From NCBI GenBank assembly GCA_951406725.2, contig OX597822.1:31248001-31312000 (forward strand): DNA of 64,000 nucleotides. The letters run 5' to 3'. The stretch is from Octopus vulgaris (taxonomy: Eukaryota). Positions 8,923 through 52,407 of the stretch are shown piece by piece. Position 1 is the first letter of the stretch; every line of letters begins with the position of its first letter. A program made the position numbers and the translations under genes. The notes under the pieces are model-generated. The model did not search any database. It saw nothing but the letters and a program-made list of their open reading frames with translations, and was not told the DNA's origin.

Positions 8923-10189
8923 CAGGGGTTGGACAAAATAATGGAAACACCTAGCATCATAGCATCATAATTTTGAAATATCTATAAAATCGTCAAAAGC
9001 GTGTTTATTCTTCTGTTCTTTTTTTTATTTATTATTAGTGTTGCTCAATATGTTTTTCTAAAATTGGTATTTGTTTTCAGATATCACCAGGAAAAGGTAA
9101 TTAAAATTCATTAAAATGAGAGATCTATCGGACTTTCAAAGAGCTTAAATTGTAGGTGATCGTATGGCAGGCACTAGCGCAACGAAAACAGCCAAAATGT
9201 TTAGTGTGTCAAGAAGTGCTGTCTTGAAAGTAATGACAGCCTTTGAGAAGGAGCAAAAAACCTCCTCGTCGAAACAAAACTCTGGAAGAAAATCAAACAT
9301 TCCAGATAGGGACAGTCGGACTCTTCCACGAATTGTTAGAAAGGATCACAAAATTACAGCTTCTAAGTTACTGCAGAGCTTAATGACCACCTGGGGAACC
9401 CAGTTTCCACAAAAACTGTTCGCCGGGAACTGCACAAAGCCGGATTTCATGAGAGGGCTGCAATCAGAAAACCACTACTTTCAGAAAAAAAACAACTTAC
9501 GAAGCGCTTAGAGTGGAGTAAAGACCTACATAATTAGTCCCGGGAGCAGTGGAAGAATGTTATTTTCTCGGACAAATCATCCCTTACCATATTTCCGACC
9601 AGCGGTTGAGTATACGTTTGGAGACAGCCAACAGAAGCATTTGACCCAGACTGTCTTCTTTCAATTGTTAAACTTGGAGGAGGATCTGTGACTATATCCT
9701 GAAAATCCGCCGGCCTAATGGTTTCCCTTCATGGCAGAATTAATAGTCAAGAATATTTAAGCATTTTAACTGATCAAATTCATTCTATGTTTCCGGAACT
9801 GTTTCTGGAGGGAAACGCAATGTTTCAGGATGATAATACACCAATTCATACAGCTAATGTTGTTACTAAATGGCACGAGGAACATTCTAGCGAAGTGAAA
9901 CAACTTATCTGGCCACCAAAATCCCCAGATCTCAATATTATTGAACATTTATGATGCATTTTAGGAAAGCAAGTATGGAGTCAATATCCTCCTCCATCAT
10001 CACTAGAAGACCTGGAGACTGTTTTAGATGAAGAATGGAAAAAAAAGTCCCTTTGGAAACAATTCAAACTCTGTACGAGTCCATACCATGTAGAATTCAA
10101 ACTGATTACTGTCAAAGGCGTTCCTACCCCATATTAAAATATATTTATTTGAAATTTTAAGGTGTTTTCATTATTTTGTCCAACCCCTT
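8923..10189 (+). mobile_element. Tc1-like DNA transposon, full length and defective
   Basis: TIRs CAGGGGTTGGACAAAATAATGGAAACACCT / AGGTGTTTTCATTATTTTGTCCAACCCCT, flanked by TA. Confidence 0.93.
9117..10135 (+). pseudogene. Tc1 (DD34E-type) transposase pseudogene
   Basis: MRDLSDFQRA*IVGDRMAGTSATKTAKMFSVSR (HTH); VIFSD; FQDDNTPIH; WPPKSPDLNIIEHL*; stops and frameshifts present. Confidence 0.92.
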
Positions 10190-13117: not shown

Positions 13118-13555
13118 TTATTTTCTACGACTTATTTTATTTCTATACACTTTTAAGAATGTAGAAGAAAATTTATGGATGCAAAAGGGAATTACGTCAG
13201 TAAATTTATTCAGAGTGTGCGGTCCATAACACCTAAGGATGGTAAGGGATTCCCTTATGCACAGGTTGCACTTGTTAATATTTCCCTTGGAATTTTGGGT
13301 TTTAGAGATAATAGACCATTCTAGATAATAATTCTTATTATTTTTCTTCAAGTTGTGTATATGGGATGCAAGTGTTGTTGAATTACAGTATTTATAGTTA
13401 GAAAATGAGCTCATATGTTATCTATATCTAGCCTTAAAATCTACTGTGCTACCTATATAAAATTTATTTAACTTATCCTCGTCCTTGACTACACATTTTT
13501 ATATAACGTTAGTAACTAGTCAGGAACCATCTAAAGGGCATAATTCAGGTTTACA
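13118..13555 (-). pseudogene. Penelope-like element GIY-YIG endonuclease, 5'-truncated
   Basis: One frame: CKPELCPLDGS*LVTNVI*KCVV..FYIGSTVDFKARYR*HMSSF..STTLASHIHNLK..LEWSII..CNLCIRESLTI..LNK..CIH. Confidence 0.88.
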
Positions 13556-18797: not shown

Positions 18798-19741
18798 TAT
18801 GCATACATATATACATTTATGTAACTATAGACATATGTAATAATAATTGACAAAATTATTACTTATTGCTCACAGAAAGTATTAGTCAAAAATAGATTTG
18901 CTAAGAGATTAGAATATCTACGTTAGAATTGTTTTTCCAAAACTGGAAATAAATTAGCGTAGCATCTTTCAACCAGAGTGTTTTTTTCGGTAACTTAAAC
19001 AACCATGAAAGTTAAAATCGAAACGTCCTGATAATTTTACATATATTTTAAGCTGTTGGTTATCATAAACTTTGCACATACTTTTACACTACTTTAAATG
19101 TAAAATATAAGGAAATAATTCTAATTACTGCAAACAAATATATCCCTAACATAGACGATAGAACTTCAAATTTAAGAACTTGTATATTCACACACACACA
19201 CTCACGAACGCACAAACATACACGACATACACAGGCAAGCAAACACACACTTACATCATATATATATATATATATATATATGATGTATGTGTGTGTTTGC
19301 TTGCCTGTGTATGTCATGTATGTTTGTGCGTTCGTGAGTGTGTGTGTGTGAATATACAAGTTCTTAAATTTGAAGTTCTATCGTCTATGTTAGGGATATA
19401 TTTGTTTGCAGTAATTAGAATTATTTCCTTATATTTTACATTTAAAGTAGTGTAAAAGTATGTGCAAAGTTTATGATAACCAACAGCTTAAAATATATGT
19501 AAAATTATCAGGACGTTTCGATTTTAACTTTCATGGTTGTTTAAGTTACCGAAAAAAACACTCTGGTTGAATGATGCTACGCTAATTTATTTCCAGTTTT
19601 GGAAAAACAATTCTAACGTAGATATTCTAATCTCTTAGCAAATCTATTTTTGACTAATACTTTCTGTGAGCAATAAGTAATAATTTTGTCAATTATTATT
19701 ACATATGTCTATAGTTACATAAATGTATATATGTATGCATA
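18798..19741. repeat. Long palindrome with ~460-bp arms centred on (TA)n at ~19270
   Basis: 18798-19258 is the reverse complement of 19281-19741 with very few mismatches; 18683-18800 also directly duplicates 19156-19270. Confidence 0.92.
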
Positions 19742-26964: not shown

Positions 26965-27527
26965 CATCATGTCTTTCAGTCATTGAACTACAGTCATGCT
27001 GGGGTACTGCCTTGAAGAATTTTTGTCTTTAGTCTCATGAATTGACTCCAGTATATATTACTTTTTAAAGCTCAGTTATTAACCTACCGATCTCTTCTGC
27101 TCAAGTGCACGGTCACAGGGTCGTAAGCAGAATAATGCATGTTGTCAACCGGTGGGGAACAAACACGAACAAAAATATACACACACACATGAGCGCACAC
27201 GCATATACAGATACATACCAATAGCTTCTTCAGTTTCCATCTACTAAAGTGTATTACAAGCCTTTAGTGGATTTGTCGCAATAAAACGAAGTCATCTGCC
27301 CAAGGTATCCCAAAGCGGGAATGAACCCGGAACCTTGTGCTTTGAAAGCAAACTCCTTACCGCACAGCCACACTTGCACAGTGCGGTGAAAAGTTTGTTT
27401 CCAACCACATGATGCCGAGTTCAGTCCCATGTCGTGGCATCTTAGGCGAGTGTCTTCTGCTATACCTTCGGAGAAACCAAAGCCTTATAGATGGATTTGG
27501 TAGATGGAAACTGAAAGAGTCCCGTAG
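26965..27527. mobile_element. Two back-to-back SINE A remnants (minus 26965-27375; plus-strand head 27376-27527)
   Basis: Similarity to 23433-23841 on each strand. Confidence 0.65.
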
Positions 27528-27623
<96 letters not shown>

Positions 27624-27639
27624 TGTGTGTGTGTGTATA

Positions 27640-28487
27640 CAGGGTGTGGGTGAGTAAATTACGCAAAAATGAAAATAAGACTCACATCTCATTATAACTG
27701 ATATATTTACCAAAATTACATAAAGAATATCTTGAAATTCTAAAGAGTAAATTTTTTCAATGAAATCTCTATTAGCTTCACTCACGGTCTCCAGACAACT
27801 TCGGAATCTCTTGCAAATCTTCTGGACACTCTTCTTGTTTAAGTTGGTCAGTACTACCATAATCCTTGCCTTCAATTCATCTTTTGTGTTACAAGGAATT
27901 ATTTTGATGGTCTCTCGCTCACCTGCGCCCCACACATAACGGGGTTGAAGTCTGGAGAGTCAGGTGGCCACATTATAGGGGTAAGGTGGTCGCAGAAATT
28001 GTCTGACATTCATCAATTGATTCTCCTGCCTGTGTGACAGACATAGAGTCATCCAGCAACCACCCTCTTGATCTAGGGCAGCGGTATCTCCTTCAGGAAC
28101 ATGTTGTAGGCTTCTGTGCTGAGTCTGAGGCCGTGTAGGAAGATGAATGGAGGCATAATGTCGCCATCACTAATGATAACTCCAAACACCATGATGTTGA
28201 CTGGATGTTTGATTTTTATTATTCTTTGTATGTGTCCTGAGATTGCACTGTCCTCATATTCACACACAGATATTCTGAAATATTCGTTTTAGAGCTTCCG
28301 GTGGAAATGCCACGCAGTACAGCATACCGTTACCAAATTTCTGGCACTGTGAACTGCGTAATTGCGCTGTTTTTGTCACAGATGTTGCACAACTGACCCT
28401 ACTATTGTGGGTAGTCGACAAAATCAAAAACAAACAATATGTGAACTTAAAAATATAGAACGGCGACGTTTAACCCATCGTACCCTG
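27640..28487 (-). mobile_element. Internally deleted mariner-like (maT/DD37D-like) transposon
   Basis: Minus translations KHPVNIMVFGVIISDGDIMPPFIF and WPPDSPDFNP..VWG..NTKDELKARI..CKRFRSCLETV; degenerate TIRs beginning CAGGGT at both ends; a related TIR lies at ~57066. Confidence 0.8.
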
Positions 28488-33407: not shown

Positions 33408-34054
33408 TAGCATTAAATACCCGTCGTTGCCGGGTCATAGTGCTAGTGCATGTATATATGTGTATATATATGTGTACATATTACATGTACATCTATATAT
33501 ATACTTCAACACATAAAATGCAAAATGCAAAGTTATATCTTGATATCGCTAGTGATAACAATACTCAAAATATATAATAGACTGGAAATGTTAGCTCTTC
33601 CTTTTTCTCTATATTGTATACTTTATAGACAATAGTCTTTTCTTTAATTTAATTTTTTATTATCCATAAAATAGAGAAACGTTTTTGTTTCACTTTTAAC
33701 GCGTAATACTGAAATAGTGGAGAAGATATGATATTGCTATGGGCTCGCTCTAGGCAAGAAGTTGAACATTTTTTTGCCCATGAAACTACATGGACCCTAA
33801 GTAAGGCATGTGTCAAATTTGAATGGAATTGGTTGCGTAGATCTCAAGTTTTAGGTAATCGTAGTGGAGAAGATATGATATTGCTGTGGGCTCGCCCTAG
33901 GCAAAAAATAAAAATTTTTTGCCGATGACACTCCTCGGACCCTAAGTAAGGCATGTGTAAAATTTGAATGAAATTGGTTGTGTAGTTCTCAAGTTTTAGG
34001 GAAACACACAGACAGACAGACAGACACACATTCTCTGTTTTATATATATAAAGA
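33407..34054 (-). mobile_element. Non-autonomous Helitron-like element with an internal ~150-bp tandem duplication
   Basis: Minus 5' A|TCTTTATATATATAAAA..(CTGT)n; 3' hairpin CCCGGCAACGACGGG..CTAG|T; units ~33714-33860 and 33861-34000. Confidence 0.72.
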
Positions 34055-35135: not shown

Positions 35136-35305
<170 letters not shown>

Positions 35306-35310
35306 GAGTG

Positions 35311-35351
<41 letters not shown>

Positions 35352-35518
35352 CAACGAATTGCCTCACCACACACCGAATTTAGAAATAGCAGTCAAAGAG
35401 TTATAGCTATTCTTTCTACTAAAAGGGAGATCTCAGTAAAAATACAGCACTTGAATGGCAAACACAGACAGGTAAGAGAGAATGAAATGACGGCAATCTA
35501 TCATACAATTTTCAGTCA

Positions 35519-35610
35519 CCTACGGACGTACGTTTCGAAATCAAGTTTTAGGAAAGCATAAGAATTAGATAATTCTACCTTACCCAAACTTCTTTTCTCA
35601 TCAGCGTAGG
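35519..35610 (-). ncRNA. Type I hammerhead ribozyme
   Basis: Reverse complement of 36175-36266. Confidence 0.82.
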
Positions 35611-36174
35611 ATACTACAATTATGAATAATTGTATATTAAATTTTGAGATACTAGAACTTGATTTCGAAACGTACGTCCGTAGGTGACTTAAAATTGTAT
35701 AATAGATTGCCGTCATTTCATTCTCTCTTACCTGTCTGTGTTTGCCATTCAAGTGCTGTATTTTTACTGAGATCTCCTTTTAGTAGAAAGAATAGCTATA
35801 ACTCTTTGACTGCTATTTCTAAATTCGGTGTGTGGTGAGGCAATTCGTTGCTAAACCCTTAATTGCTTAGTATTACTTAAATTTTCCTCGAATGAGGCTT
35901 TTACATGCCGAAATCTACTTGGTGTAATTAATAATTATTCCAAATTAATTAATTTCACCCTTTATTGTTACTGATAACCATATTTTATCCCAGTAAATGA
36001 CCACAGCATCTTGTCTTGGCTACACGCGGGTGGAAAGGGGCTGGTGACACAAACTTTCATTCACACTTTGAATTTCGTGGTACTGGTAATGCTTTGGCTC
36101 GCTCTGACACTGAGTTGAGATGATGCCTTCTAGTATCTCAAAATTTAATATACAATTATTCATAATTGTAGTAT

Positions 36175-36266
36175 CCTACGCTGATGAGAAAAGAAGTTTG
36201 GGTAAGTTAGAATTATCTAATTCTTATGCTTTCCTAAAACTTGATTTCGAAACGTACGTCCGTAGG
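36175..36266 (+). ncRNA. Type I hammerhead ribozyme with extended stem II
   Basis: CCTACG-CTGATGA-GAAA..~55 nt..TTTC-GAAA-CGTACG-TC-CGTAGG. Confidence 0.85.
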
Positions 36267-36757
36267 TGACTTAAAATTGTATGATAGATTGCCGTCATTT
36301 CATTCTCTCTTACCTGTCTGCGTTTGCCATTCAAGTGGTGTATTTTTACTGAGATCTCCCTTTTAGTAGAAAGAATAGCTATAACTCTTTGACTGCTATT
36401 TCTAAATTCGGTGTGTGGTGAGGCAATTCGTTGCTAAACCCTTAATTGCTTAGTATTACTTAAATTTTCCTCGAATGAGGCTTTTACATGCCGAAATCTA
36501 CTTGGTGTAATTAATAATTATTCCAAATTAATTAATTTCACCCTTTATTGTTACTGATAACCATATTTTATCCCAGTAAATGACCACAGCATCTTGTCTT
36601 GGCTACACGCGGGTGGAAAGGGGCTGGTGACACAAACTTTCATTCACACTTTGAATTTCGTGGTACTGGTAATGCTTTGGCTCGCTCTGACACTGAGTTG
36701 AGATGATGCCTTCTAGTATCTCAAAATTTAATATACAATTATTCATAATTGTAGTAT

Positions 36758-36849
36758 CCTACGCTGATGAGAAAAGAAGTTTGGGTAAGGTAGAATTATC
36801 TAATTCTTATGCTTTCCTAAAACTTGATTTCGAAACGTACGTCCGTAGG
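36758..36849 (+). ncRNA. Type I hammerhead ribozyme with extended stem II
   Basis: Same motif one unit downstream. Confidence 0.85.
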
Positions 36850-37133
36850 TGACTTAAAATTGTATGATAGATTGCCGTCATTTCATTCTCTCTTACCTGT
36901 CTGCGTTTGCCATTCAAGTGGTGTATTTTTACTGAGATCTCCCTTTTAGTAGAAAGAATAGCTATAACTCTTTGACTGCTATTTCTAAATTCGGTGTGTG
37001 GTGAGGCAATTCGTTGCTAAACCCTTAATTGCTTAGTATTACTTAAATTTTCCTCGAATGAGGCTTTTCATGCCGAAATCTACTTGGTGTAATTAATAAT
37101 TATTCCAAATTAATTAATTTCACCCTTTATTGT

Positions 37134-37220
<87 letters not shown>

Positions 37221-37557
37221 CAGATGGAGAAAGTGATAAGAAGCGATATTGAGGTACTCGTAATCTAAAGAACAAAAAATAAGCTCTAGACAAGATGTAC
37301 GATATGAATTTCATAACCTTACCACTCAGTGAAAAGAAAAAAGATGAAATATGTTAAACATTGCCCTTCGACAAGATATAATTCGACTTTTGAAGTAGAC
37401 GATTCATGACGGATAAAATTGAATGAGATGTAGAAGAATGTCTAGTGAAAGTGTGACAAGATCTCTTGGCTTACATCTGCATATTTTATGCGTGTGTAAA
37501 TATATACATATCAGTGTTTGTACATATGTATCGGCGTGTGTGTATGTTTCTGGTTGA

Positions 37558-37613
<56 letters not shown>

Positions 37614-38557
37614 GTATATATATATTTATATATATATGTATGTATATGTATATATATATATATATATATACATATATTTATATATAAGTATATATGCACA
37701 TACACACAGGCATTCACACATAAAGTCACACACATATTATTGAATACATTATTACGTTAATGAAAATATTCAAAGCGTGTAATTAACCACAATACACATT
37801 AGTTAAAGACCACATATAATTCTGCACTAGAAAGTAGTTATTTTAAGATCAACACAGACATGCCATGAAACTTCAAGTGTTTGCATATCCTCACCAGCCG
37901 TCTGCTGCGCAGTTAAATATTCATGGTACATTTAATTCTAAAACCTGTCTGTCTCTAAAACTAATTAGAAGTTCGATTAAAAGCTGACCAAATTTGAATG
38001 TTTTTAAAGTCAATATTAAATCTCTCAACTACATGTTTATAGGCATTTAAATGTTTTCGAAATTAAGTTTTATTTGTGTTTTGATTTTATTAAAATGGTG
38101 GAGAGAGAAAGAAGAGTCAGTTGGTAGTAATTCAATTACTAAATATTGACACAGGTATAGACTATTGTTTAGGGGCTAAATACATATATACAGAAACCCA
38201 TACACATGATATACATGAATATATGTTTGTTATATATATATATATTTGAATAGTTGAATGAATTATCTTATTAAGGATAATTCGAAAGATAACCGGTACC
38301 TGGGTAGCAAATTCACATCAGAAAGAATACGGTTGAAGTTATGTCCCTAGTGCATGGACTACGTGCTTTCGTGCGGAAATTTGTATGTTTATTTTAATAA
38401 ATTCTAGATATTACTCCACTATAAATTCGCATAAAATAAGGATTGCATTCTCAAATACTAAAAATCTATCGCAGATAATAGCCTCCCACAATAATAAGCT
38501 GCTAAATAAGGTCTCATCACCAACGTAGCATACAATAATAATAATAATAGAAGTAGT

Positions 38558-39223
38558 ATGGATATTAGCAATATTCATAGCAGCATTGGCGATAGCAATA
38601 GTAATAATGATAATAAAATTAACCAGATTATTAACAGTGGTGGTGTTAGTGGTAATAGTAACAGCATTCTTAATAACAGTTATATTATTGATGATAACAA
38701 TCGCAGCATTCCTATAGCCAGGGAATTTGCCGACGATATTACAACTAATAGTAATGATAATAAGATGAATAGTATCATGGCCAAAGCCAGCAACAATTTT
38801 TACACCTATCACAACAATAAAAACTCTGTCTTAGTATCGGAAACCAACCCCAACAGATTAAAGTTCTTATCCCAAAATTCCAAAATTAGAAACACCACTT
38901 ACCAGTGCAAAATTACTTCTGGAACCGATGTCTACTTCTACATTGGCGCAACCTCTTCTAAATTAGCCCAAAGGATCTCCAACCATTATTCTACTTTCAG
39001 AGATAAGAGAAAGCAACACAGCACGGGGCTAAGCAAATTAGTCTGGCGTCTGAAGAACAATAATACTTCTTTCAAGCTGGAATGGTCCATTTCGTCGGTG
39101 TCCTTCCCGTTTGATGAGGGCAGAAAATATTGTAGCATTTGTAATTCCGAACTTTTTCATATTTTGTTCGCCAAAGTCCCTTTAATAAATACACTGGAAA
39201 AGACACACCTTTCACTCATATGA
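38558..39223 (+). CDS. PLE-type GIY-YIG endonuclease ORF with an Asn-rich N-terminus (221 aa, no RT; may be a pseudogene)
   Basis: TTYQCKI..YFYIGATSSKLAQRISNHYSTF..STGLSKLVWRLK..LEWSI..CSICNSELFHI..LIN; aligns by eye to the 13118-13555 remnant. Confidence 0.72.
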   Translation: MDISNIHSSIGDSNSNNDNKINQIINSGGVSGNSNSILNNSYIIDDNNRSIPIAREFADDITTNSNDNKMNSIMAKASNNFYTYHNNKNSVLVSETNPNRLKFLSQNSKIRNTTYQCKITSGTDVYFYIGATSSKLAQRISNHYSTFRDKRKQHSTGLSKLVWRLKNNNTSFKLEWSISSVSFPFDEGRKYCSICNSELFHILFAKVPLINTLEKTHLSLI

Positions 39224-39784
39224 ATATTGACTAATATAGATAACCCCTCGATTTACAAAAACGTTTTGTTATATTTCACCCCAATAGTCAAAAGATTTTC
39301 TTATAATTCCAAGAACTACTACCCATTCCAGCGTTGCTTCTCACCTCGCCCGGCTCTTCCTCCCTTTCTCTCTCTACTTCCCTTTCTCTACAGTAAACAC
39401 AATCGAACACACAGACACAGACCTCTCACCTCACAGCTGTCATTTTTCTGACATCTACCCATCCACAAACACAATCATGCATTCACACACACACATAAAC
39501 ACATTATGACAGTTATATACAGTCACACACACAGGCACTCATTCATAAAAGAAATCAATTAAACCCACCATTCCTTTGACCTGCATCCTCTCACCTTACT
39601 ATTCTTATGTCTCCCTCCTCCTACTTCGTTTGAACCCTTGAACCTTTAGATCCTTCTAGATTCTTCTACATTCAGCCACTCTGACGTCACTCCTTATAAA
39701 CAGACACTCATTATCGCCATGGGCTCCTTGAGAGCAGTCAGCTAAACGTTTTTTGTCCATTTTGATGCCGACATAAGTACCTTG

Positions 39785-39874
39785 CCTTTCCTGATGAGAA
39801 ATCTGCATAATGTACTCCTTATTCCTTCGGAATTAGGAATATGCAGCCTTCGAAACATATGTCGAAAATAAAGG
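39785..39874 (+). ncRNA. Type I hammerhead ribozyme
   Basis: TTTC-CTGATGA-GAA..CTGCATA..TTCG..TATGCAG..TTC-GAAA-CATATG-TC-GAAA. Confidence 0.75.
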
Positions 39875-39916
39875 AAATTTGTTTACAAGTCGTTCAACTC
39901 CATTCTTTCATAAACT

Positions 39917-40051
<135 letters not shown>

Positions 40052-51721: not shown

Positions 51722-52407
51722 GTGTTGGACAAAATAATAGAAACACCTAGCATCATAGCATCAGAATTTTGAAATATCTATAAAATCTACAACAGCTTGT
51801 TTATATTTTATGTTTTTTTGATTTATTACTAGTGTTCCATAATATGTATTGCTAAAATTTTCAGATAGGGACCGTCGGACTGTTATGCGAATTGTTATAA
51901 AGGATCACAAAAGTACAGCTCCCAAGAATACTGGAGAGCTTAATGACCACGTCGGGAACCCAGTTTCTACAGAAACTGACCGCCAGGAACTGCACAAAGT
52001 CAGCTTTCGCGGGAGGGCTGCGATTAGTGAAAAAATACTTTCAAAAACAAACTTTGCAATGCGTTTAGAGTGGAGCGAAATCCTACAGAATTGGTCCCTA
52101 GAGCAGTGGAAGAGTGTTATTTTCTCGGACGAGTCATATGTTATCTTATTTCCGACCACCGGCCGAATATACGCGTAGAGACAGACACCCAGAAGTATCG
52201 ATTAACCCCGACTGTTAAACATGGAGGAGGATTTGCGATGATGTGAGGTGGGGATAAATCTTGGAAATCCGCCGGCCCAATGATTTCCCTTCTGGGCAGA
52301 ATTAATAGTGAAGGCTATTTAAGCATTTTATCTGATCAAATTCATCTTAAGTTTGGGGAAATGTTTCCGGAAGGAAACGCAATCTTTCAGGAGGAAAATG
52401 CGCCAAT
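51722..52407 (+). mobile_element. Second Tc1-like copy, internally deleted and 3'-truncated
   Basis: Left TIR remnant GTTGGACAAAATAATAGAAACACCTAG; skips ~9065-9300 of the first copy; WKSVIFSDES; ends near FQEENAP. Confidence 0.88.

What the first reader, a model, noticed from the sequence alone, without database searches (positions are those of the whole stretch)
35351..37137. 583-nt non-coding HHR monomer in a young tandem array with an inverted leader: candidate circular-RNA retrozyme
Seen: ~2.5 nearly identical direct units plus an inverted partial unit, bounded by (TA)n; one HHR per unit (GTC site at 36258-36260 and 36841-36843); array ends are out of register with the cleavage site. Known: metazoan non-LTR retrozymes are tandem HHR repeats processed into circular RNAs, usually with monomers of a few hundred nt. 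Inference: the array arose by rolling-circle reverse transcription of a 583-nt circle, which is a large monomer with an unusually long stem II.
Basis: partly seen in the sequence, partly recalled or inferred. Interest (0 to 1): 0.76.

Follow-up and report, generated by a model that had tools for sequence, protein, structure and literature searches.

The report
Penelope-mobilised hammerhead retrozyme family
This is one copy of an abundant non-coding repeat that carries a hammerhead ribozyme motif and is likely pasted around the genome by Penelope-like jumping genes; its two-armed copies end at two fixed sites, one per arm, which likely marks how those enzymes start copying, while the proposed circular RNA remains untested.

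Summary
The array is real: 2.55 direct units (582/583 nt), a 309-nt inverted leader and (TA)n flanks. It holds two complete type I hammerheads, a half one and an antisense one.

The unit belongs to a dispersed family (1,085 exact core matches). No coding parent turned up in 99 loci, so it fits the known animal non-LTR retrozymes. The size (published range 51-972 bp) and long stem II (54-56 nt in local coding Penelope-like elements) are ordinary.

The ends are not random circle permutations. They cluster at two sites, A (+190-207) and B (+286-308) from the cleavage site. All 28 of 46 two-armed inserts with both ends in these windows pair A with B. A coding Hydra-type family does the same (16 of 16 scorable). 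This points to twin priming at two internal start sites.

Sister non-coding families share a structured module around these sites (5,003 motif matches). Against a simple rolling-circle origin here, units 2 and 3 share variants absent from unit 1, suggesting later duplication.

Cleavage and circular RNA are untested. The scan noted similar Penelope/hammerhead inserts in other genomes, but not this family. Verdict: new member of a known kind.

The parts
35149..35350 (.). (TA)n-rich left flank, the likely insertion target
35351..35657 (-). Inverted arm covering monomer positions 451-583 then 1-176; outer end at +176, 14 nt short of window A
35519..35610 (-). Complete type I hammerhead motif on the minus strand; cleavage triplet at 35527-35525
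35652..36260 (+). Start of the direct array: 3' half of a hammerhead (triplet 35676-35678) and the first full monomer (35679-36260, 582 nt)
36175..36266 (+). Complete type I hammerhead 1: 6-bp stem I, CUGAUGA core, 61-nt stem II, GAAA, self-complementary stem III, GUC at 36258-36260
36261..36843 (+). Reference monomer between cleavage sites: 583 nt, 36% GC, non-coding, fold z = -3.5
36758..36849 (+). Complete type I hammerhead 2; GUC at 36841-36843
36946..37137 (+). Terminal copy of the module shared with sister families (monomer +103 to about +300). Contains site A (about 37039) and ends at site B (37137); inferred start sites of reverse transcription
37137..37224 (.). (TA)27 then (AG)n right flank

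Best explanation
The element is one insertion of a dispersed, non-coding, hammerhead-bearing tandem repeat (an animal non-LTR retrozyme) that is likely copied in trans by the reverse transcriptase-endonuclease of a Penelope-like element. Inferred steps: the enzyme binds a structured module 100-300 nt downstream of the ribozyme and cuts both strands of a (TA)n target. It primes one cDNA at site A and the other at site B. Both cDNAs run upstream through the ribozyme cleavage site and stop at variable points, and their ends are joined by microhomology. This gives a direct arm plus an inverted arm, one of them carrying the ~100-nt tail. The template is likely a circle closed after dimer-dependent self-cleavage (about 55%) or an uncleaved multimer (about 45%). 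At this locus the third direct unit was likely added later by DNA-level duplication. Shown: array, motif, family size, fixed ends, the A+B pairing, no coding parent in the sample. Inferred: cleavage, circularisation, twin priming, identity of the helper.
For: Family: 1,085 exact core 19-mers, control 0; near-full-length matches at 93-99% identity. Ends: in 60 chromosome-C1 loci taken without regard to identity, 75 of 85 arm ends fall in two windows covering 41 of 583 positions; 5' ends are scattered. Pairing: of 46 two-armed loci among 92, 28 have both ends in the windows and all 28 are A+B, none A+A or B+B (Fisher p = 2.7e-8; C1 alone 17 of 17). The same holds in a coding family with a 778-aa ORF: 16 of 16 scorable loci among 20 fetched, ends +52/+200. 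Neither arm is contained in the other in 5 of 28 retrozyme loci or in coding loci L203, L205, L207, L216, L217, and the A arm is the longer one in 14 of 28, so fold-back copying alone cannot make them. None of 22 C1 copies found by a pattern starting at +1 begins at the cleavage site, so copying reads through it. Core positions C3, G5, A6, G8 are invariant in 81 of 81 pieces while N7 varies and a stem I change keeps pairing. Chimera L098 joins the array to Hydra-type endonuclease sequence through an 8-nt microhomology. Literature: a PLE protein cuts and extends both strands and starts internally at two sites that bound the tail (PMC11167929); inverted 5' copies, a one-ended tail and (TA)n targets are PLE traits (PMC8557442); retrozymes are proposed PLE derivatives.
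Against: No autonomous element sharing the unit's sequence or module was found, so the helper is not identified. The A and B windows were drawn from these same data, and 18 of 46 two-armed loci, this one included (+176/+295), have at least one end outside them. The chimera L098 is B+B and is a single case that a deletion between two independent insertions could also give. In long arrays the variants shared between units are nearly private to the locus and recur with period 2-4 (L095, L125, L143, L101), which one monomer circle cannot give. In vitro a PLE used unprocessed RNA as its main substrate and hammerhead mutants still inserted. Only 1 of 9 Xenopus retrozyme dimers cleaved in vitro. Only 12 of 60 C1 loci have two intact cores one unit apart.
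Confidence: 0.8

Rival explanations
1. One reading: the array is a direct record of rolling-circle reverse transcription of one 583-nt circle, with ends set by arbitrary permutation.
For: Copying reads through the cleavage site. Units within a locus are far more alike than between loci, and L102 and L026 have no variable substitution site. Coding copies also carry partial tandems of variable length (L208, L210, L212). Circles are shown for coral, mussel and axolotl retrozymes (PMC7229834).
Against: The 3' ends are fixed, not permuted. Window units 2 and 3 share 61C and 78G, absent from unit 1 and the leader, and that pair occurs in no other sampled locus. Periodic private variants occur in long arrays.
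Confidence: 0.3
2. The unit is the pLTR of a coding Penelope-like element that was not sampled, and the copies are its truncated ends.
For: Insertion anatomy matches that of the coding Hydra-type families. Most copies are shorter than two units. Searches score only the best candidates, so coding families were sampled incompletely.
Against: Upstream of the module the sequence returns to the same unit, not to an ORF: head-to-tail arrays of up to about 10 units (L095). No in-line ORF in 99 loci apart from one chimera; the only gap over 700 nt between unit pieces holds a transposase-like insertion. No pLTR homology in the Hydra-type or Neptune-type loci tested.
Confidence: 0.1
3. The inverted arm arises by fold-back self-priming (as proposed in PMC3846280) and not by a second priming event on the RNA.
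For: Several loci have near-equal inner ends of the two arms (L014, L008, L018, L125, L140, L117), as a hairpin would give.
Against: Loci exist where neither arm is contained in the other, either arm can be the longer, and A always pairs with B among the 28 scorable loci.
Confidence: 0.15
4. The local array or its inversion is an assembly artefact.
For: Microsatellite flanks; two of the unit differences are homopolymer indels; the junction was not checked against raw data.
Against: The same anatomy recurs at dozens of loci with different junctions. Contigs of other public runs leave the unit for (TA)n at the same A and B positions (36456; 36553-36560).
Confidence: 0.04

Closest known systems
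Animal non-LTR retrozymes (Cervera & de la Pena 2020, PMC7229834; Li et al. 2026, bioRxiv 10.64898/2026.07.22.740005)
   Same: Non-coding tandem repeats with one type I hammerhead per unit, GC under 50%, well-folded monomer, dispersed in many copies, co-existing with coding PLEs.
   Different: Longer than the 170-400 nt circles of the 2020 paper but inside the 51-972 bp range of the 2026 preprint. 61-nt stem II. Circle and cleavage not shown here. The parts of those papers that I read do not describe fixed end sites, inverted arms or a shared recruitment module, and no pLTR sister was found for this family.
Insertion architecture of EN+ Penelope-like elements (PMC3846280; PMC8557442; PMC11167929)
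   Same: Partial tandem, inverted 5'-truncated copy with a short overlap, tail at one end only, AT-rich target, hammerhead upstream of two internal start sites.
   Different: No ORF. Tail about 100 nt (about 150 nt in the coding family here) rather than 30-40 bp. The strict one-A-one-B pairing per insertion is counted here; the papers call the tail optional or present at one end.
Hydra-clade PLEs (PMC8557442, section 11)
   Same: Coding families in this genome show the DKT motif, CxxC and CxH around the conserved E and N, (TA)n targets and hammerheads with long stem II and palindromic stem III; they follow the same A+B end rule.
   Different: Their pLTRs show no detectable homology to the unit. 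The clade call rests on motifs read by eye, with no tree. The CxCX5C linker was not seen.

Membership tests
Animal non-LTR retrozyme | At least two consecutive tandem units with a complete type I hammerhead | tested here: met
   36175-36266 and 36758-36849; core invariant in 81 of 81 pieces; no Rfam match
Animal non-LTR retrozyme | Non-coding, GC below 50%, highly self-paired monomer | tested here: met
   No open frame over 87 aa; 36% GC; z = -3.5, 0 of 100 shuffles as stable
Animal non-LTR retrozyme | Dispersed multi-copy family with monomers, dimers and multimers | tested here: met
   1,085 core matches; arrays up to about 10 units
Animal non-LTR retrozyme | Unit size in the known range | tested here: met
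   583 nt is outside 150-450 bp but inside 51-972 bp
Animal non-LTR retrozyme | Self-cleavage of the transcript | not testable with these tools
   Stem III is 1-2 bp with a palindromic loop (intermolecular duplex -10.4 kcal/mol), the form reported to need dimers
Animal non-LTR retrozyme | Accumulation as monomeric circular RNA | not testable with these tools
   Only contigs are available; a circle junction and a tandem junction have the same sequence
PLE-mobilised insertion | Partial tandem with adjacent inverted 5'-truncated copy | tested here: met
   Window and 46 of 92 loci two-armed
PLE-mobilised insertion | Two internal 3' end sites, tail at one end | tested here: met
   75 of 85 C1 ends in two windows; 28 of 28 scorable inserts A+B
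PLE-mobilised insertion | Target-site duplication | tested here: inconclusive
   Flanks are (TA)n, which hides a duplication
pLTR of a coding PLE | RT-endonuclease ORF directly upstream of, or between, the repeats | tested here: not met
   0 of 99 loci apart from chimera L098 (Hydra-type queries on 76 loci, and on L001-L030; Neptune-type queries on 99 loci)
pLTR of a coding PLE | Sequence homology to the pLTR of a coding family in the genome | tested here: not met
   sampling of coding families is incomplete

The most novel reading that the evidence does not exclude
Several unrelated-looking non-coding hammerhead repeats in this genome form one superfamily of Penelope parasites. They share a structured RNA module that presents two start sites, and each integration uses each site exactly once, one per target strand. 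That rule would explain the long-unexplained one-ended tail and inverted arm of Penelope-like elements and would be direct genomic evidence that PLE enzymes mobilise retrozymes, on a circular template.
Probability: 0.45. Interest if true: 0.65.

Novelty: new member of a known kind. Interest (0 to 1): 0.42.

Why it matters
The element itself is an expected kind of repeat. Its value is as a natural experiment. Papers name PLEs as the likely helpers of retrozymes and call the tandem/inverted PLE structures mechanistically undefined. Here a non-coding family and a coding family in one genome follow the same A+B end rule. A short non-coding RNA with two mapped start sites and intact candidate helper ORFs makes both questions testable in vitro.

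Tried and rejected
Rfam: no hammerhead match at the gathering threshold or at E<=10; only hairpin and microsatellite chance matches.

The neighbouring coding PLE (38248-39920) as parent: rejected, alignment scores did not exceed the shuffles.

Pfam on the endonuclease fragment and on two long ORFs: nothing over cut-off, so 'PLE' rests on motifs and architecture.

Parent search: no shared pLTR or module in line with an ORF in 30 loci of the neighbour's family, 30 of family 2, 64 loci around ORF starts (output partly cut) or 30 GIY-YIG loci, mostly Neptune-type. Module hits in those loci (L046, L056, L218, L257, L298, L317) lie apart from the coding elements' own pLTRs and were read as separate insertions.

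Expression: no RNA holder listed on record. Four runs guessed to be RNA have contigs over all 30 bins, and three cross the 583-to-1 joint unchanged. This cannot tell circle from tandem or RNA from DNA, and is not used as evidence of expression.

Enrichment of 5' ends at the cleavage site: not found; one or two cases (L105, L119).

In alignment A1, rows L067 and L070 were in the wrong orientation and were disregarded.

Paper searches for a prior description: Penelope-like + tail + inverted + twin priming, 1 unrelated review; retrozyme + Penelope + twin-priming, 0; octopus + hammerhead ribozyme, 5 held, none of the 4 listed on this family; cephalopod + Penelope + non-autonomous + ribozyme, 0. 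The library lacks most subscription papers and Repbase/Dfam entries, so prior annotation as a repeat is not excluded.

Full report
Observation. The element runs from 35351 to 37137 between (TA)n tracts. It consists of a 309-nt inverted arm and a direct array of 2.55 units with 99.1% identity. Hammerhead cleavage triplets lie at 35676-78, 36258-60 and 36841-43, 582 and 583 nt apart. Two direct motifs are complete, the first is a 3' half, and the leader holds a complete antisense motif. The motif is type I: 6-bp stem I, CUGAUGA, a 61-nt stem II, GAAA and a 1-2 bp stem III with a palindromic loop, the form reported to cleave well only as a dimer (PMC4209133, first quarter read). Rfam does not detect it. 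The monomer is non-coding, 36% GC and folds better than all 100 shuffles (z = -3.5).

Family. The window lies in a 2.8-Gb genome of 227 contigs; from its size and microsatellite content I guess a cephalopod, which no call confirms. The unit gave 2,339 first-look candidates, 40 scored. A 19-nt core pattern matches 1,085 times against 0 for the control. The 90 matches on contig C1 fall in 61 loci; 60 were fetched as an identity-blind sample and the 61st earlier. Core positions C3, G5, A6 and G8, which were outside the search pattern, are invariant in 81 of 81 pieces, while N7, position 4 and a stem I base vary in tolerated ways. Twelve of 60 loci have two intact cores one unit apart.

Ends. Counting from the cleavage site, 75 of 85 arm ends in the C1 sample lie at +190-207 (A) or +286-308 (B), usually at a TA-rich point that runs into the flanking (TA)n; 5' ends are scattered. 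The windows were drawn from these data. Among 92 loci (60 C1, 32 chosen by identity), 46 are two-armed. Twenty-eight have both ends in the windows and every one pairs A with B (Fisher p = 2.7e-8; C1 alone 17 of 17, p = 5e-5). Eighteen have an end outside, including this locus (+176, +295). A young coding family (778-aa ORF; endonuclease identical in dozens of copies) ends at +52 and +200 from its own hammerhead: 16 of the 20 loci fetched were two-armed and scorable, and all 16 pair the two sites. Either arm can be the longer (14 and 14), and in 5 of 28 retrozyme loci and five coding loci neither arm is contained in the other. Both arms were therefore likely templated on RNA, which favours twin priming over the self-priming proposed in PMC3846280 (passages). 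It agrees with an anole PLE protein that cuts and extends both strands and starts at two internal sites bounding the tail, though that paper saw no strand difference in start site (PMC11167929, first half read). Contigs of other public runs leave the unit for (TA)n at the same positions.

Autonomous or not. No locus has a PLE ORF between units or directly upstream, with one exception. In L098 the array is joined to endonuclease sequence of the 778-aa family through an 8-nt microhomology; this is one case, B+B, and only a hint at the helper. The pLTRs of the Hydra-type families (DKT, CxxC and CxH motifs as in PMC8557442 section 11) and of Neptune-type families show no homology to the unit. Their hammerheads have 54-56-nt stems II, so the long stem is the local norm. 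Sister non-coding tandem families (about 576 and 616 nt, with different hammerheads) share blocks at monomer +103-174 and +223-241. The first block has 5,003 exact pattern matches, control 0. The blocks are predicted to pair around site A in the window's unit, and the differences seen by eye between families are one-sided changes that keep pairing; no formal covariation count was run. I infer that this module recruits the enzyme.

Circle or not. For: none of 22 C1 copies found by a pattern starting at +1 begins there, so copying passes through the cleavage site. Some arrays are homogeneous (L102, L026). Coding copies carry partial tandems of variable length. Circles are shown for other retrozymes (PMC7229834, parts 2-3 of 6 and passages). 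Against a simple reading: window units 2 and 3 share 61C and 78G, absent from unit 1 and the leader, and no other sampled locus has that pair. Long arrays carry nearly private variants in period 2-4, best explained by duplication after insertion or by multimer templates. In vitro a PLE preferred unprocessed RNA. A read-through transcript of this locus would also form a 309-bp hairpin with its leader, which would likely hinder the ribozyme (inference). I put the circular template at about 55%.

Comparison and verdict. The element meets every testable criterion for an animal non-LTR retrozyme. A 2026 preprint (main text read, parts 1-3 of 5; its supplements were not opened and may list related families) reports units of 51-972 bp and argues for a PLE origin, so neither size nor PLE link is new. 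Four paper searches found no description of this family or of the A+B rule; the one-ended tail itself is known. Earlier scan notes report similar PLE/hammerhead inserts in other genomes and nothing in this genome or by sequence. New member of a known kind; interest 0.42, carried mainly by the end rule and the shared module.

Noticed in passing
window 38248-39920: Truncated two-armed coding Penelope-like insertion (Hydra-type endonuclease fragment 38510-39223, Asn-rich linker, own hammerhead near 39790-39865). Its inverted arm ends at that family's long site and its direct arm at the short site. The endonuclease query gave 15,930 first-look candidates.
   Followed up: yes
L062, L070, L089, L223, L245, L238, L067: Several sister non-coding hammerhead repeat families (about 576-644 nt where a period was seen; stem II about 30-83 nt) sharing the 3' module and the two-armed insertion form.
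   Followed up: partly
L098 (G000:C4:97757786-97759700): Chimera of the unit array with a young Hydra-type element through an 8-nt microhomology.
   Followed up: partly
G000: Young PLE families with many intact open frames: 778 aa and 899 aa (Hydra-type) and 781 aa (Neptune-type, long repetitive 3' region, no hammerhead found by my pattern).
   Followed up: partly
L095 (G000:C8:3133797-3139510): Ten-unit array with alternating unit variants (period 2 and 4).
   Followed up: yes
window 33715-34000: Two copies of a 145-nt unit, 87% alike, probably from another repeat family.
   Followed up: no
window 13121-13516 (-): Another degraded GIY-YIG fragment of Penelope type.
   Followed up: no
window 9149-9951, 27360-27959, 51843-52175: Frames resembling Tc1/mariner transposases by eye; no host-gene exon was recognised in the window, not tested by search.
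   Followed up: no
window 19052-19452: Inverted duplication of a few hundred bases (near-identical translations on opposite strands).
   Followed up: no
L120:2600-3940: A 1.3-kb mariner-like element inserted inside an old copy of the unit.
   Followed up: no
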